64,000 nucleotides of DNA from Psammoneis japonica. Taxonomy: Eukaryota. The stretch spans positions 186,001 through 250,000 of the forward strand of contig QPGO01000069.1 of NCBI GenBank assembly GCA_008632985.1. Reading direction: 5' to 3'. A program made the translations under genes and the position numbers. Position 1 is the first letter of the stretch. Each line of letters opens with the position of its first letter. This document shows, piece after piece, positions 1-42,140 of the stretch. The notes under the pieces are model-generated. The model was not told the DNA's origin, searched no databases, and was given only the letters and a program-made list of their open reading frames with translations.

Positions 1-1682
1 CAAGGATGATTGCCTTGGAGGAATGGGGCAACGAATCCCAAATCTGTTGGTGGTCGGGAGGGAGACGTTTCCATTGGTCACCGGTGAGGCTGGGACCGCG
101 GGTGCAGGCAGCATTGGCCTGAAGGATGTCAACATCGCTGTCGATGTCATGGAACACATCATTGGACGGTTCCTCAGAGTGGACATCGTGTGCGTGTGTG
201 GCACGTCGGGGAGCTCGAGGTGTCGTCTTGGGTTGAAATGCACTGTCGCATTGAGCCGCCGCGGAGAGGAGCAAGCCACAACGTTGATCACATGTGAGGC
301 TCTTGCCACTCTGCGTGCGATGCTGATCAGCTTGGTTCTTGACAGCACGGAGTTCCTTGACAGGATGTGCGGCATTCTCGAGCATGACGCGCTTCTGTCC
401 TTCAGAGAAGTGGTCACTGGCCGGGATGAGTGCCTCATGCTTGCGCAACTGATCTTGCCAATGAAGGATGAACCCGTGGGTCGGACCTTTCCAAGCACCA
501 TCACCAAGACGTGCGGTGGCAAGGTGCATGAGCAAGGTGGAGGACTCGATGGATGCACGGGTGGAGGCGAGCGCATGCTCGGACAAGGCGCGGTGGACGG
601 TCTGGGTGTCAGAAGACCCCACATTTTTGCAAATGAGAGCCTTGCCCTTGTCGGTGAGAAGGATGCGTTCGAAGATGGCGAACATGCACTTTTGCTGTTC
701 AGCAAAGAGCAGTTTGTCTTCGGGGCTGGTCGGTTTGTACGACGAGTCGAGAGTGCACTCGACGTCTTGGGCACGGGCTTGTGCCACAAGTGAGGTGTGC
801 CAAGTGTGCCACTGACGGGCTCCAGTCCCAGGTGGGACTCCGTGTGACATTTGGCCCGCAGAATTCTGCGTGCGAGCTCCGTAGTGCGAGAATTCTGTTG
901 ATGGATGTGTTCATCTTCAACATCAAATAAACGGCCAAGTTTGTGGTGCAATTGTGCCTCTTGCCACTCGACTTTTTTGCAAATGCACCTGCCCCACACG
1001 ATTCTTAAGACATTGTAGAATCGCGCTGTAACAAAAAATGTCAAAAGTTGTTGGACGGATCGCTCAATGAGTGCACCGTAAAATGACAAAAAATGTCGAA
1101 AAAATCATGTAGAAATCTACGTGCGCGACATACGACGTGATCCAAAAAACTGTCGATGTCACAGTTCAGCAGTGCGAGGTCCCACCCAGACCTAGAATGC
1201 GTCCACTGCTTGTCAGATTTGAGAGCCGTGAAAGTGGTGGGGTCACGCTTGATGCCTCGCTTGAAGTCTCATGCCGGGTCGTGTGCCTTGGTCGGGTTGG
1301 TGACATGCGGAGGTGCGAGGGGCAAGCTGCCGACGGACACAGAAGACATGCAGTCGGGGCTGAGGCAGCAGGCAAGGAACTCCTCATGCATGAACAACAA
1401 GGAGTCATTGGCAACATCAAGACCTTCGTGTGCTTTGACAATGTGCAGACTGGTCAGAGCTGCTAACATGTTCTTACAACCGCGGGGCAAAGGGATCACA
1501 TTGGTGCCATCATCGCACTCAAGCGAGTCGATTTGTGACGGCATGAACATGAACAGTTCTTGGCGCGAGTCCGTGCCGTCGTGGGTCAAAGCCAAACAAA
1601 GAGGGCTCCCAGCACCTTGGGCAAGCACAGTTCCAACAACGTGCTCAAAACCATCGGTTTGTTGCTGACGAGTGAGAACCAT
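1..1682 (-). mobile_element. Decayed Ty1/copia (CoDi-type diatom) retrotransposon gag, interrupted by a MITE and running off the window's left edge
   Basis: Manual minus-strand translation gives MVLTRQQQ...DFKRGIKRDPTTFTALKSDKQW|HTWHTSLVAQARAQDV...FAEQQKCMFAIFERILLTDKGKALI...ARLGDGAWKGPTHGFILHWQDQLRKHE...FSEGQKRVMLENAAHPVKELRAVKNQADQ, which I recognise as CoDi-type Gag. There is an in-frame TGA at 1269-1271. The frame is restored by removing the MITE at 814-1203 plus one TSD. Confidence 0.85.
814..1203. mobile_element. MITE copy A (non-autonomous TIR element, GACG termini, 4-bp TSD CACT)
   Basis: Left end GACGGGCTCCAGTCCCAGGTGGGAC; right end reverse-complemented GACGCATTCTAGGTCTGGGTGGGAC. 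It is flanked by CACT (810-813) and CACT (1204-1207). Both ends align to the reverse complement of 61324-61725. Confidence 0.9.
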
Positions 1683-2331
1683 GGCAGACAAAAGTGGTGT
1701 CAGGACAAGCGATTCTTGTTGGGACGCGAAGGCAGACTTGAAACTTGGGTGAGAATGGACTTAACTTGAAGTGGACTTGACTTGAAATCTTGAACTACCT
1801 TAAAATCAGAAGTCGCCAGGCTGTGCTGTCCCGATCATTGTCAAGTGCTAAACTTCCCATCCGGTCCGTAGAGTTGTGCCGGCACGTGCGAACCCACAGC
1901 CAGCGGCGCTTTGGGTTGCTTGCAAGCGGAGTAGCGGGTTGTAAACCCCTGCAGGCAAGCTGACTGGAGGTGGACAAGACCCCCGAACCGTTCTCATTTT
2001 ATGTCGGTTGGATTTCTGATCAGGCTGGCCAGTTGACGCAGGTGTTGGGCGCTGTGGATGAACAAACAAACGCGGGAAAAACACCCTTGCCCCAACGCAG
2101 GCTGCAATCACGGCTGCTTGCTCTCACAGTCGTCCTCGTGGACCCAGTGGAACTGCAGAGCACCAGCAGTCCAGGGTAGATCAGGTGCAATGGACTCGGT
2201 GTGCTTGTAGAGTGGTGGCAAAGCCGCAGTCCAAAGAGTGGGCACAAGTTCTTGGCCGTGAAGATGTGTGTGCATGTGTGTCTTCAGCGACGAAGATCCT
2301 TGAACATGTGGGGTTCCTGACCGTTAACCAA

Positions 2332-2601
2332 TGAATGGGTGTGTCAAGGGATGAGGATAAAGGATGGACTTGGATGTGACCGTTGAGTGCATGTCTTCAG
2401 CGACAAAAGGCAGTGCGATCAATCCAGACATCCAGCGACAAGGAGATTTGAACGGTGACGTTAACTTCCTGCCCGATGCCTGGTGTTGAATGCGTGCAGA
2501 CTTGCCGATGCACGCAGAACACATGCGGAGATCCACGCAGAATTGAAGTGGCATCATCGGTAAATCAACGACGATGATGGCGGTTGCTCAATGGGTTGAC
2601 A
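2332..2601 (-). repeat. Putative 5' LTR of the CoDi element, followed by a PBS-like TGGTTAACGGTCAGG
   Basis: On the minus strand the segment starts TGTCAACCC and ends ...CCCATTCA, followed after 1 nt by TGGTTAACGG, upstream of the gag ATG. The second LTR is not in the window, so the boundaries are tentative. Confidence 0.45.
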
Positions 2602-3759
2602 ATGAGCAAGACTGTTAATCTGACAGAAATTGAAGGCAAATGGCAAGAATTCAAACAACAACTCCTTGCTGCTGTCTAAACAGCAGATGAGTCTCCGCTC
2701 AGAGACCGTCACAGGAGCCGAAAGACATGCAAGTCGGCACAATCGGGCTGCTGTTGTTGTTCTTGTGAGCCTTGCTGCCGGCGAGAAAATGTGGACACTG
2801 ATGGGACTCGCGCACATCCACGTGGAAGCAACACCAGGAAAGTGTTCGCAGATGGACACTAAAACACCACAAAACACGATGATCGTTGATGATGCTGCTG
2901 TTGTGCCAGTCTTACGATAATTTCCACTCATTTTTTGCATTGACATGATCACTCGTCTTATGGAGGACTTGCTTGCATCTTGGTTTGGTTGAAACAGAGG
3001 GCAAAACGTTGTTTCGCGAGGTGAGCACATTTGCCACTCGAACTCGTGACTCGATCATGTTTCTGCGAGATGATTTGATGTCGTGGACTCGATGCCTCTC
3101 TTCAACATTCGTTCATGCGTTTGGCATTTCTAATCTATCATTGGTGCTGTCACGTTGCTTTTGCCGTGATGTTGTTTCAGCAGGTTTGATTTTCGGATTT
3201 TGGCATGCCGTTTTGGGTTGCACGTGTCATCTGGAGTTGGGGGGCGGTCAAAAACGCATTGAGCATGCATCCAACACAATTGTTTTGGCCACGGATACAA
3301 CTCACAACGATCACATGCACATTGAATGAGGAATTGACGATTTTGTTGCGTTGACAACCGTTGTCTTGGAGCCGCTCTACCGACACATGAGTTTGTCACG
3401 TCATTGCGGCGCAAAAAGTGAGACTGAGTCGGATGAGTTGATGGCATGAATGATGATTTGCTTGAATGGCCATTGAAATGGCTTCACACGTTTGTTCAGA
3501 CTCGTGGGTGAGCACTGTGAATCACTCTGTTGATGTTCAACCGGAGTGACATTTTTGCATGCCTTTTTCATGTTGCTCAATTTCTGTTCTGCCTTGGTTG
3601 CCACGCAGCAGGCACCAAACAAGCGCCTCGGCGATTCAAGAACAATGTTCAAATGCACAAGAGCCTGCGTTTTCAACATGGCAGCATGTTGGTGAACGGC
3701 CTGGCTAAATGTGCAGCGTGAATTGCTGCTGCATTCCCGCAAATGGTGAGTTTTGGGAT

Positions 3760-6700
3760 TCACACATTGAGAAGTCCAAACGACTCGAAACCTGCACTTT
3801 CTGACACATTGTTGCTCTCCGCCATTGCGAGATCATTGGCAGCTTCTGCAAGACAGCAAACCATTGAAATCTTTTTTTCAGTTAGTGACTCCGAAGCATT
3901 GGAGTTCTGAAGATGTGTCAAGATTTCTGGAGACCAGATGAAAATGCCATCGTTGCCTTCTTTGGCAAGTGCTGCAACTGCTCCTGGTTTTTCCCTGTCA
4001 AAACCAAATGCAACAACTTGCTCTAGATTCTCAAAATGCCCTTTGCGCCCTGCTGTCAACTCTTTTGGGGCTTGCTTGCCAGGGTATGACGAGTGGAACT
4101 TGTTCCCCTGGTGCGACACAGCATGCAGTGACGCACCCTTCTTGTGATCGTTGTTCCGAACTCTGAAGTTTCGCGTCACACCGGAAACTTTCCCAGCACG
4201 AACGGCACGTTTTCCTCGATTCTTGTCTCCATGAACATGCACACCCTCCTGATGTTTGTTGCTTTCGTCTACAACAGGCATGGTGTCCAGGTTGAGGAGG
4301 GCAGTGTCGTCGTCAGCACAGTCTAGATCATCGATGACGTGCTTGGATGGGATCATGATGGAAGCCATCCGGACTAAGTTGTTGTGAAACCATTGCCAGA
4401 CCACGTGGTGACAACATCCATTGTAATCGTTCAAACGATTGCGCTTGTAACGTTCAAGACGCGACGACAATAAACCGGCCAGTTGGTTGCTCCGTTGCAT
4501 CATGTTGTCATCAGCAATGACGATGTCTTCAGCTGCTGTGACATGATTTGCAACCAGCTCACGCCATTTCACATTCTTCAAAACATGTGTAGCTTCAGGT
4601 GAGTTTTCGACTGGAGCACTTGGTGCATCTTCACTTTCAAGCGGAACCTCCTGTCTTTTGCATGTCACGTCGCGGTCACGCAACAACCAAGCGACTCTTG
4701 TCAGGTTTTCTTCCCCTGTCTTCGCATCTTCGAGCTTCCCCTTGTCAGGGAACTTGAAGGAGCAGGTCTTTTTAGCCGTCTCCCATTTTCGCACATGGAC
4801 AAATGCCTGTAGCCTTGGAGCCGTCATGGCATTGAAGTCGTCAAGACTCGCATTCGCAAGCCCTTCGCCGTTTCGCCCTCGGACGCGTGACANNNNNNNN
4901 NNNNNNNNNNNNNNNNNNNNNNNNNNNNNNNNNNNNNNNNNNNNNNNNNNNNNNNNNNNNNNNNNNNNNNNNNNNNNNNNNNNNNNNNNNNNNNNNNNNN
5001 NNNNNNNNNNNNNNNNNNNNNNNNNNNNNNNNNNNNNNNNNNNNNNNNNNNNNNNNNNNNNNNNNNNNNNNNNNNNNNNNNNNNNNNNNNNNNNNNNNNN
5101 NNNNNNNNNNNNNNNNNNNNNNNNNNNNNNNNNNNNNNNNNNNNNNNNNNNNNNNNNNNNNNNNNNNNNNNNNNNNNNNNNNNNNNNNNNNNNNNNNNNN
5201 NNNNNNNNNNNNNNNNNNNNNNNNNNNNNNNNNNNNNNNNNNNNNNNNNNNNNNNNNNNNNNNNNNNNNNNNNNNNNNNNNNNNNNNNNNNNNNNNNNNN
5301 NNNNNNNNNNNNNNNNNNNNNNNNNNNNNNNNNNNNNNNNNNNNNNNNNNNNNNNNNNNNNNNNNNNNNNNNNNNNNNNNNNNCCCTTGTCACGCCCGAG
5401 AGTGACTGGGCTTTCTTCGAGACACCGCAAGATTTCCGCCTTGTTGGGGTGGACAGTTGGGTCGAATGCCTCTGCTGTCAGCAAAGGTTGCAGTGACTCA
5501 ACTGCAGGAAAAACCTTGCTGAGATCACAACCCGCTTCAGATCCAGTGCGAGAAGGGTTGCTTTTGTTCTTGGCAAGTTTCTGTTGCAAATCGAGATTCT
5601 CAATTTCAGGATTGTTCGTGTGCGCCTTCATTTGACCCGCGTCGCCGTCGAACCACAGAAGAGATCGTAGAGTTTCAGGAACGGCTTGTCCCTGTGCCCA
5701 TTCATTGCTGATTTCTCTTTGAGCCTCAAGAAATGGTTGGAAAATGTGCCTTCGGTAGATGACCATTCGTTCGGACTCTCGGTCGGTGACATTGTTGCGC
5801 ATGAACAGGACGCAGCCGCATCCCGCATTGAGGTTTGTGTCTCCACCAGCACACAGACCTCGGACCCGAATCAGATGTGTGCCATCCGCATTGTTGCATT
5901 TGTCTGATGAGCAACCTTTGGGAAGCTCTCGATCTGTGAGTTTCAAGAAGCTAACCATCATGGGTGCCATCTGCCCACACGCGGAAAAGCAGTGCGTGTC
6001 TTTTGCTTGCATGCCTCGCATTGACTTGTCTTCCCCACTCTTGTGTTTTGCGTGAGTGCCGGCATCACAGTTTGAAGACGCAGAGACCAAACGCCACTCA
6101 CTTTTGTTGTTTTTTGTTCCCGCAAACACGCACGTCGTTGTGTCATCCAATCCCACAATGTGCGTGGGTTTAACAGGGTGCACCTCAACTCCCCATGCCT
6201 TCTCAACAAGTTGAAGAAAGAGCTTTGAACCCTCTCCAAGCTTTGGGAATGTGGCGTTTCGAAAATGTCTGTCGTGTCCGACAGCAAAGTGAGTTTGTCC
6301 GATGACGAGAGCCAGTGACATGGCTCCAATCAATGATTGCTCAGCTGTGCGTCGGGCTTCGGTCTTCTGCACGACACTGTCGGTGATGGACATTTTGGGA
6401 TTCGTCGCCGCGGCAAGAGTCCTGCATCGACTGACCGTTGTTCGGTGAACTGTGTGCTCATTGTCTGCTGCAAGGCCTTGATGGTTCATGTCATCCTGCT
6501 TCTTCCCATTTAACATTTTCTTGATGTCCTCTAACCTGACTGTTTGTCCTTTGCTCTCAACCACGTTTCCAGTTGCCTCAACGAGTTTGTTCTCAGTCAT
6601 GATTGGAACGCGACCCCTTGCTCCCCACGCCTCATTGATTGGTTTCCCTTCTCGAATTTTTCGCAGCACCTTGTGTGCACTCTTGTCACTGACATGTGGC

Positions 6701-7395
6701 ACACATTTCTTCTGTGTCATGTCATTGACAATTCCCGCTCACTCTTTTGCGTTCCTTCCTTGAGTTGTGTCACAAACTTCTTGTTTGGTGCACTCAAGCT
6801 GATCTTTTGGTTCAGGGTGCGTGAATGCTGTGGCATTTGACTTCTTCTTTTGAGTTGACTCATCTGAATTTTTCGTGTCCCCTTTTCGTTTTTTCGAGAG
6901 TTTGCGATCACCAGCAGGTGGCGTCTTGATGCGCAAGGCAAGTCGCTCCAGCTCAATGAGTTCATTGGCCTTTCTGGGAGCTGCTGGTGGTGGGATTTTT
7001 TCTTTGTCTTCCACGTTGTTGGGACTTGGCAGAGACGTTGGTTCAAGATTGGCGGTGCGCAAAGCACGTGATTGGGCAACTTTCTCCGAAGCCGCGAGCC
7101 TTCGACGCGCGTGCGGAACGCCCGGCATCTTGGATTCTTTTGCAACTGTTGCATTTGATTCAACAGCAGCTTGTTGAACAATGGAGAGTGTTTCACTAAC
7201 AACTTTCAGACAGTTGCTGGCCTTTTTCAAGTCACGTGCAGTGCTGTTTCTGTCGTCGAGAATTTGCCTGGTGTCTCTCAAAATGACTTGCTGTTGACGG
7301 GTGGCTTGTACGATGTTGGCATTACGAAGCTGAGTTTCAAGTGATTTGTCTTTGGCAGACCGTCTGATGGCAGCATCACCATCTGTTTTAGTCAC
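3760..7395 (-). mobile_element. Decayed DDE (pogo/DDE_1-like) transposase gene with a possible C-terminal GIY-YIG-like domain; spans the assembly gap
   Basis: ORF 3760-6720 has motifs resembling the DDE_1 triad context (IVGLDDTT ... CFSACGQMAPMMV ... RSLLWFDGD ... PSRTGSEAGCDL). The C-terminal part has EGVHVHGDKNRGKRAVRAGK...RNFRVRNNDH. The upstream ORF 6739-7395 may be the N-terminal part. The protein is depleted of Tyr and rich in Cys/His. Confidence 0.55.
4893..5383. other. Assembly gap (run of N)
   Basis: Directly visible run of N. Confidence 1.
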
Positions 7396-7912
7396 ATTGT
7401 TTGTTGTGGCAATGAGAGCAGCTTTTGCATCGATCCGAGATCGTTCTTTTTTTTTTCACGTGGTTTTGTAAGTTGTTTTCGGCGCGTGCTCTTGGATGAC
7501 TCGCACGGAGGTCAAACGCCAAAAATGACCTTTTTCAGTGTCCAGTTGTGCTCGGTGTCCATTCCCGCACGCCGGCAGCTTGTGGCTCGAAAGCAAACTG
7601 CATCGCGCGCGAACGCGTGGAACTGAAGCACACAAAACTGTGCGCGGCAAACCAAACAGCGCGTGACATTTCGCGTGCACCCAAATCCTGTTCAAATCCT
7701 GTCAAAGGTCAGTGGCCACAGCTGGCAATGGCAGGCAAAAGGTTGTCAAATGATGTTGCACTCCACGAGTTTTGGGCCCTGTGTTTCTGGTGCAAGAAAG
7801 CCAGTGGAGCACATGAACCACCGGCACCACATGCCATCTTGGTTGTTGTGTCATTGCTTTTGTCAGAACACCCAAGGAGTTGCATGCAGGACAGTTGGCA
7901 GAGTGTGTTGGC

Positions 7913-8475
7913 GACGTGTTCCAGCCGCACGTGAACCAAATCGTGCACAAAAACGACATTTGCGCGATTTTTGCGCGGTCCCTAACTTACGATCGAACTT
8001 TCACCACCAAAAGTATAGATTTATACAAATATAAATGTTTTGCAACACTAACAAGACTCGTGTGAGTGTTGCAATATCATTGTTATTGTGCTATCTGCTA
8101 TCTATGTTTTTCATTGCGTTAAAAGATTCGTAACACAACGGATGATTTTCGGCGAAAACATTGCCGTTATTTGGATGTTACCTAGACATATCTTTGTACG
8201 ATGCTACTTGGTAGGTTTTCTACCTACAAAAAATCTCAGTATAAATCTACTGACGTACAATCAGGATTGAGTCTAGGTACTGAGGAAGTTTATGATACAA
8301 ATCCCATGAGGATTTGAACACCCCTCAAAAAACTATTTAAATGTGCATACTCTAGAAGCCTATAAAAGTCAATCCGTCTAAGTATTTTTATTAAAATGCT
8401 GTATACACTAAAATATACATAAATTATATTCAAAATCCGATTGTCGTTTTGTGCGTCACCTGGATGGAACACGTC
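7913..8475. mobile_element. MITE copy C (GACGTGTTCCA TIR, 4-bp TSD TGGC), AT-rich interior
   Basis: Left end GACGTGTTCCAGCC...GCACAAAAACGACA; right end reverse-complemented GACGTGTTCCATCC...GCACAAAACGACA. It is flanked by TGGC (7909-7912) and TGGC (8476-8479). Confidence 0.85.
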
Positions 8476-11047: not shown

Positions 11048-11561
11048 GCTCTGGTGTTGCTGTTTGCTTCATCAGCGATGATGCTCCCAAGGGTGACTGC
11101 CAGGAGAGAGGTGAAGAAGAGGAGTGGAGCCATGCCCAAGATGTTCTTGGCTGCTGCCTCCTTTCACAGCAGCACCATCAACTTCAACTCCTGGCTTTTT
11201 TAAAATTCAGCATGCTTGTTGCTTTGGCGCACAGAGAGCTCAGCACCACAAATGGCACCCCTGCTCTTTGTTTGAGGAAGAGTTTGGATGAACAGCCAAG
11301 AGTGCTGCAACCATTGCCTCCATCTTTGGCTGGATGAACCTTTTCACTCATGGACTTGGAGGGTTGTTGCTTCTGACAAACTCAGTGCCAAGGTGGGGGT
11401 GCATGGCTGTTTGCTTGTCCACACCATCTTCCTTGCCTGCAAGCAAGCAATGATGCTCATCTTTGGCAACAATGCCAGTTCCCCTGGACTTGCCATCTTT
11501 GTCATGATTTTGTTTTCTCATGACTGCAGTGCCGTTCCTTGTGTTGACCCCCTGTCAACTG
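11048..11561 (+). pseudogene. Degenerate internal fragment of an NRT2 nitrate transporter gene
   Basis: Aligns by eye to 19073-19588 of the intact NRT2 (e.g. CCATTGCCTCCATCTTTGGCTGGATGAACCTTTTC and CACACCATCTTCCTTGCCTGC are identical). It has frameshifts and an internal deletion. Confidence 0.92.
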
Positions 11562-11683
11562 CCCCCACCTTCTCAAGCCTTGTCCTTGTCCTTGCACTCA
11601 CCCCACTTTGCCAAGAGCTGTGCCAACACTCCCCACCTTGTTCCAAGTCTGCCGCCTCTTCCTGCCTCAATGACAACCATGCC
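11461..11683 (+). repeat. ~220-bp direct repeat, copy 1 (NRT2 fragment fused to non-NRT2 sequence)
   Basis: Near-identical to 14777-14997. Confidence 0.9.
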
Positions 11684-14600
11684 TCCCCCCCCACACACAC
11701 ATTCCACGCCAAACCCTAACCCCATTTTTCACACATGGTTGATCTGTTCTTTTTAATCTTTGGCAGGTGTTCACAACACACCATTGAGAATGCCAATGCC
11801 CACTTTTTCTCCACTGGAGTTTTGGACCAAAGATGTGTGTGCTTCGCGTGCATTGGCACTTTCAACAGTCACATCTGAGCTGCAATGGCAATGACCATTA
11901 AAATGGCTGATCTCAATCTTTTTGGCTCACGAGAAAACTTGCCAACCACACTGATGAAGCAAAAGTGAAAGCTTGCATTGTCAAGCTTTGCAGGTTTGGC
12001 AAGACTGATCCAAAGTCTTGTCAGTGCCAAAGGTGCTCTGTGCATTCGAGAACCCCAATGACAGTGTACAACCAAACAATGATGACAAGTGCCAGTGCTT
12101 CCAATCAAATCATGCCAACAAGGAACAACAAAGCCACAGCGTCACATGCCGTGACTTTTGCTGAACCCAGCTCAACTGCAGCTGCAGCTGAAAAGCACCC
12201 ACCAAAGGCATCCAAGCAACAAAAAAATTGACAAACTCGAACCATGCCAGGAACTGATTGAGAGGCAGCAAACAGGACTTGGGGACACCTTTGAGACCTT
12301 GGCGACTCAAATGATTGTGCAACCAACCCAGGTGCAACTGAGGGAGACAAGCGTGCAAGCCTTCATTGGTGGTCAAGACCCTCCATTTGTCCCCTGCAGC
12401 TCAAGACTCAATGTTGAACTCAAGCACAGCAACAAGCTTAATGACAATGCTGAAGCAGCTGAGCTTGTGAGTGAATTCAAAGATTTGGCATCCGATTTCC
12501 AATGAAAAGGAACCAAACTCATGCACAAGATGGCAGAACAAGAGCTCGAATGTGCAAAAGCTGAAAGATTTGCTGCATTCTTCAACTCGTGCATCAACCT
12601 CTTTGAATGCCATGTGTTCTGTTGTGTCACATGCAGAAAAGGAGAAACCAGGCATTCATGCAGGCACCTGGGAGCGCTCTGCCTGTTGAAACATGCCAAG
12701 AAGTGTGTTGCTGACATGTTCCACTTGACACGCCTGTGAGTCAAGCAGGATGGTCATCACTGATGAGATCATCTTGCAAATGAACTTGGCAACAGAGGAC
12801 AATCCTGCCGACACCCAAGGCGACACGACAGAAAACCCATGTCACCTTGCGGATGGCAAGACCAAGATCTACAAACAAGTGGTCATGTGCCTTCAATGCA
12901 AAAACACTTTTGAGGAAGTCACGATGACACTGCAAAACAAAATCAATTGCAAGAACGAGCTTTCCTGAGCAAATGCCCAAGTCGCAGCCAGATGGAACGC
13001 ACGGAACAAAAAAGCCGCAGCAGAAGCAACATCAGCTGCACTGGAAGATGAGCCAGCAGCAAGCCCAGACATTCTAAAACAGCTCATGGCCAAACAAATT
13101 GAGCTCAAAGTGGCTGGCACAGCTGAACAAGCAGCCAAAATGCTTGAACAGCAACAGTTGCAAAAGAAATGAAAAAACTGAATGGGCAACCAGAAAGCCC
13201 CACCAGCAAAAAACAACGCCACAACAAAGGCAAGAAAAGGGCCACCACAGAAAAAAAACAAAAAACAGGAAACAAGCCCCAGTCCAAAGCCACCCAGAAC
13301 CAAGGAACAGCAAAAGGCAGTCACGGTGCACAGTGCACAGGCAGGCAAAAAGGCTCCAAAAACAAGATGAGACATGGGCAGCTAAACAGGCATGATGCCT
13401 CACCACCAAGGAGACAATCAAAACTGCCAACCGTCAAGCCAATAATTTTTGCCAGAGGATCTGTGGGTTCACACCAAACCCAAATAAAACCCAGTGGCAG
13501 AATGCAGTCAATGCCCTTGGTGACATTTCTGCAGTGCAATGCTTCAGCCAGCCACAAACAACCTTGCCTTCCACAACCCATGCACTGCCCTCATGCCACC
13601 TCCTGGACTCGTTGCATTGCTTGGACTCAGCCACAAGTTCTGTGTCCAACAACCAAAGCCTCCAGCACCCCACAACAGGCCTGGAATTGAGCAACTCTGT
13701 TGCTCAATTTGTCTCTGTCAGCTCATCAACAACACAAACAACCTTCCCAAAACCAACTGCATCCCCGGCTTGCATGGAATGGGCCCCACCAAAAATTAAG
13801 GACAGAAACCTGGAACTGCAGATGATGGACTTCATGAACCGCACCAACAAACTCTGCCACAAAACGCCCAAGGCACAATTTGTCGCCACACCAATGCCAA
13901 CTCCTCCACTCACCTAAAAGAGGACAACCAGTTTGTTGTCTGTGTGAGCGACAAAAAACAGGGACCAGTCATCATTAAAATGCAACCCATGTGAAATGAG
14001 CCCTTCAAGACCACTTGCTCAACTAACACAGCCACCAACGGCTGTCAATGCAGGAGAAAAACGAACTCCTGCAAGACACCAAACAACAGCTCATGGATGC
14101 GCACAATGAAGCCAAGTCAATGTCAAGCTCTGCCAAGCAAACACATTTCAAACGCAGCTTCAATCTGCCGCACTGCATCCCGCAATTTCATGTCATGATC
14201 AAGGTCCAGAAATCCCCATGGAAAACAAGACCCATCATCAGTTGTGTCAGAAGCTTTAACAAGATTTTCTCAAATTTGTCAGACAAGAAAATGAAAGAGC
14301 TCCTTGCTTTTTCCCACTCCTGCATCTGCGATTCTTGCCAAGTGCAAGGATCTGTGAGCATTGGAAAGCCCACCCAAGGACGCCAAGCTCTTCATGCTTG
14401 ATGCCGTCAGCATGCTTTAAAACATTGACACAAACCATGCATTGGAAGTCTTCAAGAACTGGTTTTCTGCCTGTTCTGACAAAATGCCAGCAGATTTCCC
14501 ATGCAGTTTTTTCTTTCAGCCCTCTCAATCATCATGACATGGAACATTCTCCAGTTTGACGACACTTTTTGACTGCAAACCTGTGGAACTGCTGTGGGCA

Positions 14601-14777
14601 CTGGCACAGCATGCATGTGTGCAACACTGCACAAGGCCCTTCATGAACGCCAAGTGCTGCAAACCCACTTCACCACCAACCTGCAGTGCTGTGGCCAATT
14701 CATCAATGACATCTTGGGGATGTGGGCCGGAAACTCTGACTCAACATGGACAGAATTCAAAGCAGAAATGAACAACT
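11562..14777 (+). mobile_element. Decayed, 3'-truncated Penelope-like retroelement (upstream ORF plus reverse transcriptase)
   Basis: RT motifs across frameshifts at ~13.9-14.77 kb: IPQFHVMIKVQKSPWKTRPIISC, KLFMLDAVSML*NIDT, NILQFDDTF*LQTCGTAVGT, LQCCGQFINDILGMW (Penelope-type PKVHK..RPIIS, DxxSMYTNI, QxxGTAMG, RFIDD). No GIY-YIG domain is seen before the sequence switches to the direct repeat. Confidence 0.8.
11938..12003 (+). ncRNA. Type I hammerhead ribozyme (mutated) in the 5' part of the Penelope-like element
   Basis: CTTGCCAACCACA-CTGATGA-A-GC-AAAA-GT-GAAA-GCTTG-CATTGT-CAAGC-TT-TGCAGGTTTGGCAAG. It has the core CUGAUGA and GAAA, stem III GCTTG/CAAGC, NUH = CUU, outer stem I CTTGCCAA/TTGGCAAG and a minimal stem II. 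Confidence 0.75.
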
Positions 14778-14997
14778 CTTTGGCAATGCCAGTTCCCCTG
14801 AACTTGCCATCTTCATCATGATTTTGTTTTCTCATGACTGCAGTGCTGTCCCTTGTGTTGACCCCCTGTCAACTGCCCCCACCTTCTCAAGCCTTGTCCT
14901 TGTCCTTGCACTCACCCCACTTTGCCAAGAGCTGTGCAAACACTCCCCACCTTGTTCCAAGTCTGCCACCTCTTCCTGCCTCAATGACAACCATGCC
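14777..14997 (+). repeat. ~220-bp direct repeat, copy 2
   Basis: Near-identical to 11461-11683. Confidence 0.9.
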
Positions 14998-17149
14998 CCA
15001 TGCCCCCCCCCTTCCGTCATTCCATGGTCCCTAGAGAGCCTCAATTCTCTGGGCTCTCTTCTTGGAATTGTCCTCAACCACTGCAAAAATTGAGGATGGA
15101 TCTGAGCAGGCTGAGCATGGACATTTTCCCACATGTGCAGCATGCCACATTGTTGCTGTGACATCAACTGTCATCACACACCAAACATGGCATCTGTTGG
15201 CCATGAGCATTGGCTTGGTGGCACTGATGATGCCAACTTGGTTGGCCTTGATGATGACTGGGGGACTGTGAAGATGCAGCACATGGTGGCATGTCTCTCT
15301 CTCTCTCTCTCTGTTCAGAAATGGGCTGCTGCTGCTGCTGTTGCATCTGCTTTAGCAAAAAGAACAAGAGGAAGCAAGATTTGGCACCAGTGCAAAACTT
15401 GCACCAGCAACATTTGGCAGCAGCAAAAAACTTGTGCTGAACAATGATGCTGGACAATGGCGCCAATTGTTGTGGCTTCCCTCTCGTCACAACTCATTCA
15501 AGCAAAATTCAGCAGCAGCACAAAACTTGCACTGAACACAAAAGCAAACTCTTGCAACTTCTCAATTGGCTGTCACAAGTCATTCAACAAAGCCTTGGTT
15601 GGCTGTTCATTGTTTTTGGAGCCAGAGCACCACAGCTGCCTTTTTCTTTGCCTTCTCCATTCTAAAAAAAGCAGAGGCAACCATGCCTTGTTGGCAGTGA
15701 ATTTGGTTTTTGGCTTGTTGTGTCCACCACAATTTTGTTGGTTGTTTCCCAAGTGCTTGTGAGTTTTTTGTTTGTGTCTTGGCTCACCTTCACAAAATGA
15801 AGACACTTTCCCTCCTTGACAAGTTGAGCTTTCTTTTTCTTGTCAGCATTTTTTCATGCAGACTGTGTTGGAGGAACCCCAAAGTGTGTCAGTGAGTTTG
15901 TCCTTTTTCTGGAGCTGACTGCATTTTGCAAAAGTTTCTGCCAGATGCATTGAGAGCTGAGAGCAGTCCACAGCAGTTGCACTGCTGTCAAGATTGCCAT
16001 GACAGAATGGGCACTTGTTTGCATGTCCATCCTTGCTTCAGTGCATGGGTGCTGCTTCCGCTTCTCCAAAAAATTCTTTTAAGTTGACAGCGCCAGCACT
16101 GCCTCTGAAAAATGAGACCATGTCCCTCATGAAGTTCATTCAAACTGCATTGCCTCCCATGCATTGACACAACTTTGTTGGAAAGCTGAGTCAGGCTGCA
16201 GAGCCAGTGCAGTTGAAAAGATTTTTACAGAGGCAGCAGCTGTGCCACTTTGCAGGATGCCTTCACCAACAATGTCCAGTCTTGGCGTGTTTGCTCAAGG
16301 CTCAATGGGAGCTTTTGAGAGCCACCATGACAAGACTTTTGTTTTTTTTGTTGTGTCACAGCCCCCACATCAGTTGATGATGTCATGCACATGGCACAGC
16401 TGACAACAGCCAATGCATGCTCAATTTGTCAGAGTTGTTGTCATTGATTCTTGACATGCCTGGTGTGTTGCATTTTTTTGTTTGTTGCACTGTCATGCAT
16501 TTTGGCACATGAGCAAGTTTTTCCCAAGGTTTGGGGAATGAAAACCTGTGAGAATTGTTGCCAGAGTCTGTTGGATGCACTGCACAAAATTTGAACAATG
16601 GCGAACAAACAATGTGGTGCACAGAACAGATGATGGTTCCAGAGCAGTGCTTCAGCACTGTGTCATTGCATCACAGTGCACTGTCAGGGCCCACAAGCTG
16701 TCAGGGAGCTTCTTGTCAAACAACAGCACATGATTGCTCTCTTTTGCATTGACCAAATCTTGTTTTGATGGTCCTTGTCAGCCACATCCTGTCTGCTGCT
16801 CTTTGCTGGCTCTGCTTGCATTTTAGCTTCAGACTCTTTTCTTTCTAAGTGGTTTTGTGCCAGCTTCAACAAAACCGCTTGGGCCTGGCTTGGCAACGTG
16901 TTGGCCAACAACATTGGCCCAATTTCTGCAAAAACTGGTGTGCTTTTGGCATGAACAGAGCATGAGCAGCACAGGGGGCAATTTGATTTTGATGTTTTTT
17001 GGCACATCCATTGGATTGCAGCCAGCACATGAGTGGCACTGCTGTCATCAGTTGCCACATTGTGGTGGAATGCCAACTCATCACTTTTCCTTTGCATGCC
17101 ATGTGTGAGTTGTCAGCAAAGAAGGCAGCTTGTCAGGAAAGGAAGGGTC

Positions 17150-17990
17150 TGCCTTGCTGTCCCCCAACCCTCAACCTTTCCCAACAACCCTGACTTGTGC
17201 TGCCTCTCTCTCAGCCTCTCTTGGCAGTGCTGGCTGCTGCGACCCCCCCCCCCCTGCCATGGCCGCTTGCTCCCTTCTCACTTCCCTTGCCGGCTCTCTC
17301 CAATTTGCTGAACAAGGGGTCTCCTTGGCTTGGCAGGTGACTGACACTTCCACCTGCCTCCCAGCTGATCTGCTGCTCTCTCCTCCAGGTCTAAACTGTG
17401 CTCCCCACCTGCCTCCAGTCTCCACCCCAATTTTTTCTTCCTTGTGCCTGCCCTTTTCCAAGTTGAATCTCCTGACTTTTCTTTTTCCCTCTGCCCTCCT
17501 TTGCCACTCCAACTGCGTGGCCTTTGCCAGTCACCCACCTTGACATGTCCACACCTTTGCCACCACCAGCACAGTGCTCTTCCCCTGCGCACCTGCAGCA
17601 CCAACCTGGCCTCCAGCTGGCCCTCCCTTCTCTCCCTCCCTCTTGCCAGTGTTCAACGGCTCTCCTCCATCATCACTGCCACCAACAGATCTAGCCTCTT
17701 CCTCCCCCCCCTTCACTCTTGACCATCACTTGGGTGTTGCAGGGCACCATCATTTCCACACCCTCCTTTTGGGTCACTCTCGAGGCGGTGCTTCATCCGC
17801 CCCACCCCCGCCTCCCACAGCCTCTCCAGCCAACTTTTTTCCAATTCTCATGCTCGTTCTTTTTCAGCCTGCTGATCTTCTCTCCTTTCACCAATCAACC
17901 TCGTTGTCCAGGTCAACATCACCTGGACAAACCGCAGCCCCCTGATCATTTTGGCTCTCCATTGCTCATCCACTCACCCATTTCACGCCC
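17150..17990. other. Pyrimidine-rich low-complexity tract at the edge of the repeat block
   Basis: Visibly C/T-dominated on the + strand; no credible protein. Confidence 0.5.
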
Positions 17991-18308
17991 ATGACACGCG
18001 TGAGCGAGCGACAAGACGATGAGGTGGCACTTGCAACGCCGGCATGCACGGACTCTCTACCTACAGCCAGTAGGGCCTACAGTGCTGTACGCTACGGTAC
18101 GATGCGAAAGCGGACGATTGACTGACGTATTTTCTCAGTGGCAAACCTCCGGAACTTCAACGGGTTCTGCCGCCACCGCGAACGAACACGTCTTTCAACT
18201 GCCAACCGTTCAACTTTTCAAATTCAGTTCTTCTTTCAGATCGTCTCACAATTTTCTAACGCCTCACTTGCCCCACTGTTCACACGTTGAGCAACAAGAC
18301 AAGCAATC

Positions 18309-41344: not shown

Positions 41345-41862
41345 TGATCACATGCAGAGTGAGATCTGATGATGTCTGCAGTGCTTGTTTGCTGTTGCAG
41401 GCCACTTTGATGGCATCCTCCATCATGAGTGGTGTTTGCAGATGTCCTCCACTGCACAAATAATTCTGCAGAAATTGGTCATCTCTGTCTGGCAATGCTC
41501 TGCATCTCCCAGATGACAGGGTTCCTTGTCCTCTGGGCAAGAGCAACAAGCCATGCATTGGCCATTGGCTCTTAAGAGGTGTTCAGATCTGGCCTGGTCA
41601 TCCCATGCTTCAGCCATTTTTTGGAGTTCTTGGACTGACTTCTTGCAGTTGCCATCAGGCACAAGCCACACTCCCAGTGTTTTTGCCACCACTCCAGGGC
41701 AGAGCTGTTGGATCTTTTGTTGCATGCTGTGGACATCAGCAACACACACATGGATGGTTTGTCTGGATCACCTGGGTTGAAGTTATCTTCAATGTGGGTC
41801 CATTTGCAATCATGTGCAGAGTGGGATCTGATGACATCTGCTGCAGTTCTTGTTTGCTGTTG
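41345..41862 (+). repeat. Pair of ~55-bp direct repeats (~41345-41398 and ~41808-41862)
   Basis: ATCACATGCAGAGTGAGATCTGATGATGTCTGC...CTTGTTTGCTGTTG versus ATCATGTGCAGAGTGGGATCTGATGACATCTGC...CTTGTTTGCTGTTG. Confidence 0.7.
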
Positions 41863-42140
41863 AACCTTGTTTGCACATTGGCTGCTGCTTCCCAGCTTGG
41901 TTGGCTCTGATGACCCACAGTGGCATTCATCATGTCACTGTCATTGATGAGTGCAAACCTGCAACTCAGAGTTTGTTGCCACCAAGTGCAAGAAGTTTGA
42001 AGGAAGCCCCGTGTCTTGCCACCCTCATCAACTCAAAAACTGGTGTGCTTGCTGCAGTCCATGTTTGTGGAGCATTGCTGTTGTCCAGGTCAAAATGGTG
42101 TGGATCACATGCCACAGCAAAGAGATCTCCTCTGAAAGAT

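What the first reader, a model, noticed from the sequence alone, without database searches (positions are those of the whole stretch)
1..18050. Repeat-restricted erasure of TpA (TpA->TpG/CpA): a candidate 'reverse-RIP' genome-defence mutator in a diatom
Seen: the blocks ~1-18.05 kb, ~40.17-54.2 kb and ~60.2-62.05 kb are almost devoid of TA and saturated with TG/CA (tgca, catg, tgtg, caca). The gene islands have abundant TA, and the switch occurs over tens to a few hundred bases (e.g. at ~18057). The affected blocks contain unrelated element types (Copia, Penelope, LINE, DDE transposase, a host-gene fragment), so this is not one element's codon bias. Established: 5mC deamination explains CpG->TpG, and fungal RIP goes CpA->TpA, i.e. 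it creates TA. Neither removes TA. Inference: a second, targeted process converts A->G in TpA on either strand within silenced repeats. Candidate mechanisms are a TadA/ADAT-like DNA adenine deaminase with TA preference, an adenine modification, or error-prone repair by a pol-eta-like polymerase. AA runs look intact, which argues for strict TpA specificity. I do not know of a description of this in diatoms, but cannot check the literature.
Basis: partly seen in the sequence, partly recalled or inferred. Interest (0 to 1): 0.93.

Follow-up and report, generated by a model that had tools for sequence, protein, structure and literature searches.

The report
TpA-erasing hypermutation in diatom repeats
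About half of this diatom genome window is gene-free DNA in which nearly every TA step was mutated to TG or CA, the footprint of a targeted mutation process so far reported only once, in an unrelated alga.

Summary
Four gene-free blocks (1-7912, 8476-18057, ~40018-54330, ~60215-62056) have TpA observed/expected of 0.05-0.17. Coding DNA of the neighbouring gene islands has 0.53 and intergenic DNA 0.65. An independent contig set from a sequencing run reproduces the bases.

The loss is mutational and has a direction. A pseudogene fragment of the adjacent nitrate-transporter gene lies inside one block. All 10 of the gene's TpA sites are changed there (5 CA, 4 TG, 1 AG), and 40 diatom homologues show the gene state is ancestral. 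A long ORF in block A has His or Cys where its family has conserved Tyr.

The process does not depend on CpG decay, because block A lost TpA but kept CpG. It hits both strands and prefers TAY over TAA. It cannot create stop codons.

The host is a diatom. The same signature was shown experimentally in 2026 in the chlorarachniophyte Bigelowiella natans. I found no report for diatoms in 9 literature searches.

The enzyme is unknown: adenine deamination is most likely, thymine oxidation is a rival.

The parts
1..7912 (.). Block A: TpA erased (o/e 0.07-0.17), CpG retained (o/e 0.83-0.85). Multi-copy in the genome. Contains an N gap at 4893-5383.
   Evidence: Summed contig depth is 160-450 here against about 70 for single-copy DNA. 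Variants between copies include 3 TG<>CA double changes, 2 TA<>TG and 4 CG<>TG.
3763..6738 (-). 992-codon open frame, including the N gap, almost free of Tyr (0.2-0.8%). The C-terminal 376 aa (3763-4890) belong to an unnamed protein family with a weakly GIY-YIG-like fold.
   Evidence: 466 homologues at E<=0.001, best 36-39% identity. No Pfam match. AF2 model pLDDT 89.7. VIA-align top hits: I-TevI Z 5.7, T4 EndoII Z 5.3, Eco29kI Z 4.4, UvrC Z 4.2. Conserved Tyr columns are kept in 1 of 5 (replaced by His CAT, His CAC, Cys TGT, Asn AAT), against 69 of 90 for other residues. Fisher p=0.016.
7913..8475 (.). MITE-like insertion with a TA-normal core (7983-8427, TA o/e 0.96, 33.5% GC). It has 14-nt terminal inverted repeats and the 4 bases TGGC on both flanks. 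Very high copy number.
   Evidence: Inverted repeat I2, 93% complementary. Flanks read directly. Contigs diverge at 7913 and summed depth is about 15,000. Composition.
8476..18057 (.). Block B: TpA erased (o/e 0.064) and CpG erased (o/e 0.16). Single-copy depth.
   Evidence: Contigs of 402-2907 bases with 0-1 differences at depth 60-75. A 1338-base contig bridges 17243-18579 with 0 differences.
11048..11519 (+). Pseudogene fragment of the neighbouring NRT2-like gene, 74.6% identical to 19073-19520. It serves as an internal record of the mutation spectrum.
   Evidence: TA 0 of 10 kept (5 CA, 4 TG, 1 AG). CG 0 of 19 kept (11 TG, 6 CA, 2 other). TG 30 of 37 kept and CA 23 of 32 kept.
17781..18057 (.). 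Overhang: TA-free but already CpG-normal edge of block B, ending 252 bases upstream of the NRT2 start codon.
   Evidence: TA and CG positions; sequence.
18352..19869 (+). Main open frame of the functional NRT2-like nitrate/nitrite transporter gene (MFS_1). It provides the unmutated reference state and places the host among diatoms.
   Evidence: Pfam MFS_1, E 1e-24. 72-81% identity to named diatom NRT2 proteins.
40018..54330 (.). Block C: TpA erased (o/e 0.055) and CpG erased (o/e 0.13). The TA-free zone overhangs the CpG-poor zone on both sides (40018-40330 and 53743-54330).
47409..47822 (+). ORF with a CCHC zinc knuckle (Gag-like). It is the only Pfam match above cut-off inside the blocks.
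   Evidence: zf-CCHC, E 5.3e-6, 26.7 bits against a cut-off of 20.8.
60215..62056 (.). Block D: TpA erased (o/e 0.12), CpG half lost (o/e 0.45). Shares short inverted matches with block A.
   Evidence: 814-884 matches 61725-61655 (91.5%) and 1095-1203 matches 61432-61324 (79.8%).

Best explanation
The four blocks are old, gene-free DNA that is at least partly derived from mobile elements. After insertion, a process confined to these domains converted TpA to TpG or CpA by transition, on both strands, until about 90-95% of TpA sites were gone.

This is the same kind of process that mutation-accumulation lines revealed in Bigelowiella natans in 2026. There, A>G/T>C changes fall only at TpA, only in integrated foreign DNA, at about 1000 times the background rate.

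Shown here:
- The direction of change (TA to TG/CA).
- Strict dependence on the TA step, with AA spared.
- Action on both strands without long strand-coordinated runs.
- Independence from, and probably precedence over, CpG decay.
- A neighbour preference: TAT and TAC are erased most completely, then TAG, and TAA least. TTAA survives 7.8 times better than average, and ATAT not at all.
- Borders that stop 100-250 bases from gene starts.

Inferred, not shown: the lesion is enzymatic deamination of adenine to inosine in 5'-TA-3' by a TadA/ADAT2-like deaminase acting on DNA, guided by chromatin state or small RNA.

A consequence that follows from the genetic code: this mutator can never make a stop codon, and it removes TAA/TAG. 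It therefore disables elements by missense changes (Tyr to His/Cys, Ile to Met/Thr and others) and by destroying TA-containing signals. It leaves long, dead open frames like the one in block A.
For: Composition: (TpA o/e 0.05-0.17 in blocks, 0.53 in island coding DNA, 0.65 in island intergenic DNA; YpR share conserved).

Direction. In the NRT2 fragment 0 of 10 TA sites are kept (9 became TG or CA). Of 16 non-synonymous changes at TA/CG sites, 15 have the gene residue equal to the majority of 40 diatom homologues, and 0 have the fragment residue. Four invariant Tyr TAC codons became TGC (3) or CAC (1).

Family level. Conserved Tyr is kept in 1 of 5 columns against 69 of 90 for other residues, p=0.016. 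Homologues have a median of about 2.9% Tyr, this copy 0.2-0.8%.

Independence from CpG: block A has CG at 5.38-5.39% of steps against 5.45% in the islands, while TA is 0.42-1.02% against 4.11%. GC content rises by 0.03-0.04 in block A, as expected for TA-only conversion.

Both strands: the TA outcomes along the fragment run TG, CA, TG, TG, CA, CA, CA, TG, AG, CA. TG and CA counts are balanced in 28 of 34 one-kb bins at p>=0.01.

Context. It was replicated separately in blocks A, B and C. The 3' neighbour effect has chi-square p=2e-33.

Not an artefact.

Precedent: (Results and Discussion of bioRxiv 10.64898/2026.01.13.699255 read).

No stop codons created.
Against: - No rate was measured, so the signal is an end-state footprint and could be ancient and extinct.
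- The original TA content of the elements is unknown, except for the NRT2 fragment and the Tyr columns. Both samples are small (10 sites and 5 columns).
- Part of block A (7348-7834) has a summed depth of about 25,000 with no variant at 10% or more. That TA-free sequence therefore probably amplified after it lost TA.
- A very high-copy TIR element inside the tract keeps normal TA. Copy number alone is therefore not the trigger.
- No deaminase could be looked for, because no genome is held.
- Eukaryotic ADAT2/3 substrates have G, A or C after the target A (recalled). That does not match the TAT-first order seen here.
- The sequencing platform of run X1 is not on record, and it may be the same sample the assembly came from.
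Confidence: 0.72

Rival explanations
1. The footprint is the same, but the primary lesion is on thymine, not adenine. A TET/JBP-type dioxygenase marks T in TpA within silenced DNA as 5-hydroxymethyluracil. Further-oxidised forms mispair with G and give T>C. Because TpA is its own reverse complement, this cannot be told apart from A>G using sequence alone.
For: In the dinoflagellate C. cohnii, 5hmU preferentially replaces T in the dinucleotides TA and TC. A TET/JBP enzyme makes it, and it is linked to silencing of transposable elements (passage in the Discussion of PMC11572971). Diatoms, dinoflagellates and chlorarachniophytes all belong to the SAR supergroup (established taxonomy). The neighbour preference reads equally well as R-T-A over T-T-A.
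Against: No evidence for 5hmU in diatoms was found or sought here. That 5-formyluracil mispairs with G is recalled, not checked. TpC is not visibly affected: TC o/e is 0.72-1.25 in the blocks, excluding the kilobase that holds the N gap.
Confidence: 0.13
2. RNA-level A-to-I hyper-editing (ADAR-like) of element transcripts, fixed in the genome by reverse transcription.
For: ADARs favour a U before the edited A (as the B. natans preprint notes in its Discussion). One Gag-like zinc knuckle suggests a retroelement in block C.
Against: TG and CA outcomes are interleaved within 470 bases of one fragment, which means both strands were hit. The tract covers a captured host-gene fragment and composite blocks of 10-14 kb up to sharp borders. 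ADAR's preferred 3' neighbour is G (recalled), but TAG is the second-best survivor here. ADARs are confined to animals (recalled, and implied).
Confidence: 0.03
3. Error-prone repair: polymerase-eta-type synthesis at WA motifs during repair patches triggered by 5mC deamination in methylated repeats.
For: Blocks B and C are CpG-decayed and so were probably methylated. Pol eta makes A>G errors at WA motifs (recalled).
Against: Block A has lost TpA with essentially no CpG loss. The TA-free zone extends 280-590 bases beyond the CpG-poor zone at 3 of 3 gene-facing borders. AA, the other WA motif, is not depleted; in the fragment 12 of 20 AA are kept against 0 of 10 TA.
Confidence: 0.04
4. Intrinsic composition or selection. 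The elements, or foreign DNA they derive from, were TA-poor from the start, or evolved to be TA-free, for example to escape a TA-reading nuclease. They were not mutated in place.
For: The very high-depth, variant-poor TA-free segment at 7348-7834 implies amplification of an already TA-free sequence. No unmutated copy of blocks B or C is available.
Against: A host-gene fragment inside block B shows the TA>TG/CA change with established polarity. Conserved Tyr codons are replaced by CAY/TGY in the block A ORF. Blocks with different CpG states, and therefore different histories, share the same TA loss.
Confidence: 0.05
5. Assembly, polishing or base-calling artefact at a modified base.
For: The platform of the assembly and of run X1 is not on record. 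X1 may be the source sample.
Against: Exact 31-mer-based contigs of up to 2907 bases reproduce block B with 0-1 differences, at the same depth as the adjacent gene, and bridge the border. An artefact would not give fixed TG at one site and CA at the next.
Confidence: 0.02

Closest known systems
TpA-specific hypermutation of integrated viral DNA in Bigelowiella natans (Mettrop et al., bioRxiv 10.64898/2026.01.13.699255; abstract, Results and Discussion read)
   Same: Transitions occur only at TpA and give TpG/CpA. The process is confined to particular non-host regions. The long-term footprint is TpA depletion with CpA+TpG gain. Low-TpA coding sequences are enriched for reverse transcriptase, DDE and zinc-finger domains. 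An ADAT2-like adenine deaminase is the proposed cause.
   Different: The host here is a diatom (Stramenopiles), not a chlorarachniophyte (Rhizaria). The preprint's main text holds the words diatom, Phaeodactylum and stramenopile 0 times. Here the erasure is near saturation: TA is 0.37-0.42% of steps in blocks B and C, against 3.3% in the B. natans NCLDV region. No viral hallmark was found. No per-generation rate is available. Three points do not appear in the sections I read: the TAY>TAG>TAA order, the offset from CpG decay, and the no-stop-codon property. The preprint's supplements are closed and may hold context data.
Repeat-induced point mutation (RIP) of ascomycete fungi
   Same: Hypermutation restricted to regions, made of transitions only, that degrades repeats and leaves a strong dinucleotide signature with sharp borders.
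   Different: The direction is opposite. RIP turns CpA into TpA, so it creates TA and stop codons (CAA, CAG and TGG become stops). Here TA is destroyed and no stop can arise. RIP is triggered by duplication. That is not shown here, and a high-copy short element is spared.
5-methylcytosine deamination (CpG decay) in methylated transposable elements
   Same: It also produces TpG/CpA, and it is present in blocks B, C and partly D (CpG o/e 0.13-0.45).
   Different: It cannot remove TpA. Block A and the block edges lack TA but keep CpG.
Deaminase hypermutation of retroelements and viruses in animals (ADAR A-to-I, APOBEC3 C-to-U)
   Same: Mutational inactivation of parasitic nucleic acids through a short sequence context. 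ADAR favours a 5' U.
   Different: Those enzymes act on RNA or on single-stranded cDNA, so they are strand-asymmetric. Here both strands of resident DNA are affected, including a host pseudogene, and the 3' preference differs.
5-hydroxymethyluracil in dinoflagellate DNA (PMC11572971, passages read)
   Same: A DNA-level system in a SAR-supergroup alga that reads the TpA (and TpC) step and is linked to silencing of transposable elements.
   Different: It is a base modification, not a known mutator. It has not been reported in diatoms, and no TpC effect is seen here.

Membership tests
B. natans-type TpA hypermutation of foreign or silenced DNA | Changes are A>G/T>C transitions that fall at TpA and give TpG/CpA | tested here: met
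   NRT2 fragment: 9 of 10 TA sites became TG or CA, with polarity fixed by 40 homologues. Tyr to His/Cys at conserved columns. YpR share conserved.
B. natans-type TpA hypermutation of foreign or silenced DNA | [quoted passage not shown] | tested here: met
   TpA o/e 0.05-0.17 and TG/CA o/e 1.4-2.0 over blocks of 1.8-14 kb. [quoted passage not shown]
B. natans-type TpA hypermutation of foreign or silenced DNA | Restricted to particular regions, with host genes spared | tested here: met
   57 island windows against 63 block windows barely overlap. Borders lie 100-250 bases from gene starts.
B. natans-type TpA hypermutation of foreign or silenced DNA | Targets are of viral or mobile-element origin | tested here: inconclusive
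   Inside the blocks, only one zf-CCHC among 379 ORFs scanned. A multi-copy ORF with a weakly GIY-YIG-like fold. No viral hallmark. One scan of viral contigs found nothing.
B. natans-type TpA hypermutation of foreign or silenced DNA | Per-generation rate about 1000 times background, and active only in some lines | not testable with these tools
   This needs mutation-accumulation lines or resequencing of several strains. Only one sample's contigs were available.
Fungal RIP | C>T at CpA (G>A at TpG), creating TpA and lowering GC | tested here: not met
   TpA is destroyed, not created. GC rises in block A (0.50-0.51 against 0.474).
CpG decay by 5mC deamination as the sole cause | TG/CA excess is matched by CpG loss, and TpA is unaffected | tested here: not met
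   Block A has CpG o/e 0.83-0.85 with TpA o/e 0.07-0.17.
ADAR-type RNA hyper-editing | A>G on one (transcribed) strand, with 3' G favoured | tested here: not met
   TG and CA outcomes are interleaved. TAG is the second-best survivor. The ADAR 3' preference is recalled, not taken from a call.
Polymerase-eta WA-motif mutagenesis | AA as well as TA is mutated | tested here: not met
   AA o/e is normal in the blocks. 12 of 20 AA are kept against 0 of 10 TA in the fragment.
GIY-YIG nuclease superfamily (for the block A ORF only) | GIY-YIG fold with the conserved Tyr, Arg, His, Glu and Asn positions | tested here: inconclusive
   VIA-align gives Z 5.7, 5.3, 4.4 and 4.2 to four GIY-YIG structures, all below the tool's caution line of 8. 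Pfam GIY-YIG matches 1 of 25 family members at E 0.25. Foldseek found nothing. The assignment of invariant columns G216, R231, G233, R245, H249, E349 and N361 to motif positions is my own reading.

The most novel reading that the evidence does not exclude
The diatom footprint, the B. natans hypermutation and the dinoflagellate 5hmU-at-TpA mark may be three faces of one ancestral system of the SAR supergroup. That system would chemically mark the TpA step (on T or on A) in silenced or invading DNA, and the erasure of TpA would be its mutational by-product or its purpose. On this reading diatoms carry a natural, sequence-specific enzyme that converts A:T to G:C on double-stranded nuclear DNA, with a T-A-Y preference. 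It disables elements without ever making stop codons, and some elements may then spread in a TA-free, 'immune' form (the high-copy TA-free segment at 7348-7834).
Probability: 0.15. Interest if true: 0.92.

Novelty: new member of a known kind. Interest (0 to 1): 0.78.

Why it matters
Until 2026 no cellular process was known that specifically removes TpA from DNA. The only report is a single preprint on one chlorarachniophyte, and the enzyme behind it is unidentified.

Finding the same signature at saturation in a diatom places it in a second, ecologically dominant and genetically tractable lineage. That suggests it is widespread or ancient rather than a curiosity of one species.

It also gives concrete constraints for finding the enzyme:
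- It acts on both strands.
- It prefers T-A-Y.
- It is independent of CpG methylation decay.
- Its borders lie within 100-250 bases of promoters.

If the enzyme is an adenine deaminase that acts on nuclear DNA, it would be a natural counterpart of engineered adenine base editors.

For genome annotation, such blocks yield long stop-free open frames that are dead, and sequences that similarity searches no longer recognise as transposable elements. They are easy to misread.

Tried and rejected
- Whole-genome search: no genome is held for this window. Genome-wide repeat consensuses and a search for deaminase or TET/JBP genes were therefore impossible.
- Earlier findings of this scan: nothing for this genome or this sequence. 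A word search returned only unrelated phage and organelle notes.
- Sequencing runs: one DNA sample only, and no RNA holder listed. Expression or silencing of the blocks could not be examined.
- Pfam on 379 block ORFs. Apart from the zf-CCHC inside block C, one further ORF reaches a cut-off: Ysc84, at the block C / gene-island border. Three sub-threshold hits (FKRP_N, FAM60A, Rrp40_N) were dismissed as chance.
- Word-indexed homologue searches of the block A ORF found nothing: N-terminal part, near lengths; C-terminal part, longer lengths. Only the exhaustive HMMER search found the family.
- Family identity. Pfam on 12 long homologues gave 0 hits, and on 25 aligned members nothing significant. 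A PDB sequence profile gave nothing below E 0.59. Foldseek PDB gave nothing.
The organisms that hold this family remain unknown.
- Related DNA. The alignment was too diverse for a scan. The ORF itself found no relative in metagenome contigs. P0122 found none in viral contigs.
- Survey of other diatom-like DNA. 55 metagenome loci carrying NRT2 (208 kb, 745 windows of 500 bases) hold no window with TpA o/e below 0.14 and no erased block. These contigs are mostly short and gene-centred, so this says little about repeats in other diatoms.
- Rfam and tRNA scans of the window found nothing.
- Strand-coordinated runs. TG and CA counts are mostly balanced. Local skews (12461-14460 CA>TG, p about 1e-4; 6 of 34 bins at p<0.01) could reflect the original composition, so I did not interpret them.
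- Literature. 9 full-text searches found no description of TpA erasure in diatoms or other stramenopiles. Subscription journals are not covered.

Full report
**1. The observation**

I computed dinucleotide observed/expected (o/e) ratios in 1-kb and 200-base windows. Four tracts are almost free of TpA:
- 1-7980, with an N gap at 4893-5383
- 8461-18057
- about 40018-54330
- about 60215-62056

Per block, TpA o/e is 0.17, 0.07, 0.064, 0.055 and 0.12. The three gene islands have 0.53-0.59.

I split the islands into a coding mask and the rest. Coding DNA has TpA o/e 0.53 and non-coding DNA 0.65, which is 47 TA per kb.

In 500-base windows the blocks hold a median of 2 TA (maximum 10, n=63) and the islands a median of 20 (minimum 9, n=57). 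Mann-Whitney p=3e-21. The longest TA-free run is 1463 bases (52640-54103), against 207 bases inside the islands.

TG and CA are enriched to o/e 1.4-2.0.

One useful invariant is the share of pyrimidine-purine (YpR) steps. It is the same in blocks (0.234-0.254) and islands (0.224-0.240). But TG+CA make up 94-95% of those steps in blocks B and C, 75-76% in block A and 60% in the islands. Transitions preserve the purine/pyrimidine pattern, so this is what conversion by transitions predicts. Avoidance of TA by arbitrary replacement would not give it.

AA, TT and AT are close to normal.

**2. It is not an assembly artefact**

One public DNA run (coded X1) holds 93% of the sampled words of 12000-20000. 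I laid its contigs on 5400-20000. Pieces of 402-2907 bases tile block B with 0-1 differences, at depth 60-75. The adjacent gene has the same depth. One 1338-base contig crosses the border (17243-18579) with no difference.

The run's platform is not on record, and it may be the sample the assembly came from. So this excludes polishing or consensus errors, but it is not independent biological replication.

**3. The host**

The gene islands carry ordinary eukaryotic genes: an NRT2-type MFS transporter, VIT1, a leucine carboxyl methyltransferase, a trypsin-like peptidase, an ornithine/DAP decarboxylase, a squalene/phytoene synthase, a glyoxalase-fold protein, a metallo-beta-lactamase-fold protein and an F-box protein.

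Every named relative of the NRT2-like protein among the best 120 hits is from a diatom: Asterionellopsis, Amphora, Phaeodactylum, Ditylum, Odontella, Cylindrotheca, Seminavis, Nitzschia and Pseudo-nitzschia. Identities are 71-81%. The host is therefore a diatom whose own proteins are not in that collection at high identity. It is not Bigelowiella.

**4. The loss of TA is mutational, and its direction is known**

A self-comparison of the window shows that 11048-11519, inside block B, is 74.6% identical to 19073-19520 of the neighbouring NRT2-like gene. I took the gene as reference.

| Dinucleotide in the gene | Kept in the fragment | Outcome of the rest |
|---|---|---|
| TA | 0 of 10 | 5 CA, 4 TG, 1 AG |
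| CG | 0 of 19 | 11 TG, 6 CA, 2 other |
| TG | 30 of 37 | |
| CA | 23 of 32 | |
| others | 32-84% | |

To fix polarity I aligned the gene product with 40 diatom homologues. The fragment shows 31 base changes at the gene's TA and CG sites, and 16 of them alter the amino acid. In 15 of those 16, the majority residue of the homologues equals the gene's residue. In none does it equal the fragment's. Four Tyr codons (TAC; Tyr in 36-40 of 40 homologues) became TGC three times and CAC once. The fragment is therefore the derived state, and TA became TG or CA.

Along the fragment the TA outcomes run TG, CA, TG, TG, CA, CA, CA, TG, AG, CA. Both strands were hit, with no long strand-coordinated runs.

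**5. A second, independent line of evidence: the block A ORF**

Block A holds a 992-codon open frame (3763-6738, minus strand, interrupted by the N gap) with only 0.2-0.8% Tyr and about 4% His.

Word-indexed searches found no relatives. An exhaustive HMMER search with the C-terminal 376 residues found 466 homologues at E<=0.001, 186 at <=1e-10, with the best at 36-39% identity. Those homologues have normal Tyr content: the median is about 2.9%, and 2 of the 150 listed are below 1%.

In an alignment with 24 of them I took the columns where at least 60% of homologues share one residue. There are 95 such columns. Non-Tyr residues are kept in this copy in 69 of 90 columns. Tyr is kept in 1 of 5. 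The replacements are His (CAT), His (CAC), Cys (TGT) and Asn (AAT). Fisher p=0.016. The numbers are small, but the replacements are the ones predicted for TAY>CAY/TGY.

The family has no Pfam model. An AlphaFold model is confident (pLDDT 89.7). Foldseek finds nothing. An exhaustive structural comparison puts four GIY-YIG nucleases among its top seven rows, at weak scores on residues ~154-366:
- I-TevI: Z 5.7, rmsd 2.7, 90 residues aligned
- T4 EndoII: Z 5.3
- R.Eco29kI: Z 4.4
- UvrC: Z 4.2

I treat 'GIY-YIG-like' as a lead, not an assignment. If it is right, the invariant Tyr at position 218, now His, would be the first motif tyrosine.

**6. Two separate processes act on these blocks**

CpG is erased in blocks B and C (o/e 0.16 and 0.13) and half erased in D (0.45). 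It is intact in block A (0.83-0.85). There CG makes up 5.38-5.39% of steps against 5.45% in the islands, while TA is 0.42-1.02% against 4.11%. Loss of TA therefore does not depend on CpG decay.

GC content fits simple book-keeping. Block A, with TA-only conversion, is 0.503-0.512 against 0.474 in the islands. In B and C the gain is offset by CpG>TpG/CpA, giving 0.479-0.488.

At all three gene-facing borders of B and C, the TA-free zone reaches 280-590 bases further than the CpG-poor zone: 17781 against 18058, 40018 against about 40330, and 53743 against 54331.

Copies of block A in the read contigs differ from the window at 11 events:
- 3 TG<>CA double changes
- 2 TA (window) against TG
- 4 CG<>TG
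- 2 transversions

Repeat pairs inside the window also show TG<>CA doubles: 1, 4 and 1 in three of the four diverged pairs compared.

My reading is that TA erasure is fast and comes first, and CpG decay is slow and follows. This is inference. It rests on the ORF still being open, which suggests little other decay.

**7. Sequence preference**

167 TA remain in the blocks, and their neighbours are far from random. Each TA can be classed by the base 3' of the adenine on each strand. Relative survival, compared with the islands, is:

| Pair of 3' neighbours | Relative survival |
|---|---|
| A,A (TTAA) | 7.8 |
| A,G | 3.4 |
| A,C | 1.0 |
| G,G | 0.94 |
| C,G | 0.86 |
| A,T | 0.59 |
| G,T | 0.30 |
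| C,C | 0.22 |
| C,T | 0.17 |
| T,T (ATAT) | 0 (none left; 78 in the islands) |

The marginal effect is A 2.34, G 1.23, C 0.54 and T 0.27, with chi-square p=2e-33. TTAA and CTAA/TTAG dominate separately in blocks A, B and C (8/15/14 and 13/16/15).

The pattern persists when the expectation is taken from the contexts of TG and CA in the blocks, which is the source of any newly arising TA. Against that baseline TTAA is 3.4-fold enriched, CTAA 2.4-fold and ATAT 0.

The mutability order is therefore TAT > TAC > TAG > TAA on each strand, or equivalently ATA > GTA > CTA > TTA if thymine is the target. An enzyme that reads a trinucleotide explains this more easily than generic damage does.

**8. Consequence for coding sequence**

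I enumerated all pairs of adjacent sense codons. TA>TG/CA creates no stop codon from any of them. It also converts TAA/TAG to a sense codon in 3 of 4 outcomes. RIP-type changes, by contrast, turn CAA, CAG and TGG into stops.

This explains why a copy with inactivating substitutions still shows a 992-codon frame. It also means such blocks produce misleading long ORFs.

**9. What the blocks are**

I scanned 379 stop-to-stop ORFs of 55 aa or more from the blocks against Pfam. Only a CCHC zinc knuckle (47409-47822, E 5e-6) lies inside a block and passes its cut-off. No reverse transcriptase, integrase, RNase H or DDE transposase was found.

Block A is multi-copy: summed depth is 160-450 against about 70 for single-copy DNA. 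Block B sits at single-copy depth at 95% identity or more. Block D shares short inverted matches with block A.

A 563-base element at 7913-8475 interrupts the tract between blocks A and B. It has 14-nt terminal inverted repeats (13 of 14 complementary) and TGGC on both flanks (read). Its core has normal TA (o/e 0.96). Read contigs diverge exactly at 7913, and summed depth is about 15,000. It looks like a young, very abundant MITE-like insertion that has not been mutated.

So 'repeat-restricted' is not established. High copy number is not sufficient for targeting, and current multi-copy status is not necessary.

**10. Comparison with what is known**

A full-text search led to a 2026 bioRxiv preprint, 10.64898/2026.01.13.699255. 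I read its abstract, Results and Discussion. Its main findings are:
- In mutation-accumulation lines of Bigelowiella natans, 231 of 302 nuclear point mutations fall in two integrated viral regions.
- All of the A>G/T>C changes there (230 of the 231 mutations) are at TpA.
- The rate is about 6e-7 per site per generation, roughly 1000 times background, and only some lines show it.
- Low-TpA coding sequences are enriched for reverse transcriptase, DDE and zinc-finger domains.
- The authors propose an ADAT2-like deaminase.

The signature in this window is the same, so the kind of process is known. The preprint's main text does not contain the words diatom, Phaeodactylum or stramenopile. Eight further searches found no report for diatoms. 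I therefore file this as a new member of a known, very recently described kind.

Three points add to what I read in the preprint: the 3' neighbour order, the spatial and temporal offset from CpG decay, and the no-stop-codon property.

**11. Mechanism and rivals**

Most likely (0.72 for the process, less for the enzyme): hypermutation of TpA at the DNA level, limited to particular domains. The lesion is probably deamination of adenine to inosine.

- Thymine route (0.13). TpA is self-complementary, so the sequence cannot say whether A or T is attacked. In dinoflagellates, 5-hydroxymethyluracil made by a TET/JBP enzyme preferentially replaces T in TA and TC and is linked to transposon silencing (passage in PMC11572971). 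Oxidised thymine could give T>C.
- ADAR-like RNA editing (0.03). It is contradicted by the interleaved strand outcomes, by the mutated host pseudogene and by the 3' preference.
- Polymerase-eta-type patch repair coupled to 5mC deamination (0.04). It is contradicted by block A and by intact AA.
- Intrinsic TA-poor composition (0.05). It is contradicted by sections 4 and 5. It may still apply to the very high-depth, variant-poor TA-free piece at 7348-7834, which seems to have amplified after losing TA.
- Artefact (0.02). It is contradicted by section 2.

**12. What remains open**

- Whether the process is active today.
- What guides it.
- Which enzyme does it.
- How common it is in diatoms. A look at 55 environmental NRT2-bearing contigs (208 kb) showed no erased block. 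Such contigs rarely contain repeats, so this is uninformative.
- Expression of the blocks could not be examined.

Noticed in passing
window 7913-8475: A 563-base MITE-like element. It has 14-nt terminal inverted repeats (7913-7926 / 8462-8475), TGGC on both flanks and an AT-rich core with normal TA. Summed read-contig depth is about 15,000, against about 70 for single-copy DNA. It sits unmutated inside the TA-erased tract.
   Followed up: partly
window 7348-7834: A TA-free, CpG-rich segment with the highest summed contig depth in the laid stretch (about 24,800) and no variant at 10% or more. It looks like a TA-free sequence that amplified to hundreds of copies after losing TA, or a short piece within it is extremely abundant. 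The 487-base depth bins cannot distinguish the two.
   Followed up: no
window 7704 to 17662: One contig of run X1 joins these two places and skips 9957 bases (the MITE-like element and nearly all of block B). Only 25 letters lie on the shorter side, below the 31 needed to count it. It could hint at a haplotype without block B, or it could be a repeat-induced false join.
   Followed up: no
window 17781-18057, 40018-40330, 53743-54330: At all three gene-facing borders of blocks B and C, the TA-free zone extends 280-590 bases beyond the CpG-poor zone. Either the TpA process reaches further than methylation, or the block edges are less methylated.
   Followed up: partly
window 12737 and 13343: The only two differences between run X1 contigs and the assembly in block B are TG (assembly) against CG and CA against CG. 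Both are CpG<>TpG/CpA type, as expected for methylated CpG decay or heterozygosity.
   Followed up: no
window 3763-4890 (-) and proteins P0121-P0270: A protein family without a Pfam model: 466 homologues at E<=0.001, with full-length members of 830-1340 aa that carry this domain at the C-terminus. The AlphaFold model is confident and resembles GIY-YIG nucleases only weakly. The organisms that hold it could not be looked up.
   Followed up: partly
window 42149-42688: A degenerate tandem array (period 9/18, about 29-56 copies, 68% matches) inside block C. Smaller internal duplications lie at 50209-50494 and 50888-51353.
   Followed up: no
window 12461-14460: A local strand skew: CA 134-136 against TG 78-80 per kb (p about 1e-4), while most of the blocks are balanced. 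It could mark the orientation of an original element or a strand-biased episode.
   Followed up: no
window 59613-60572 (-): A 320-codon open frame without a Pfam match spans the left border of block D (TA becomes sparse from about 60215). It may be a host gene partly overrun by the erased zone, or an artefact of the lack of stops.
   Followed up: no
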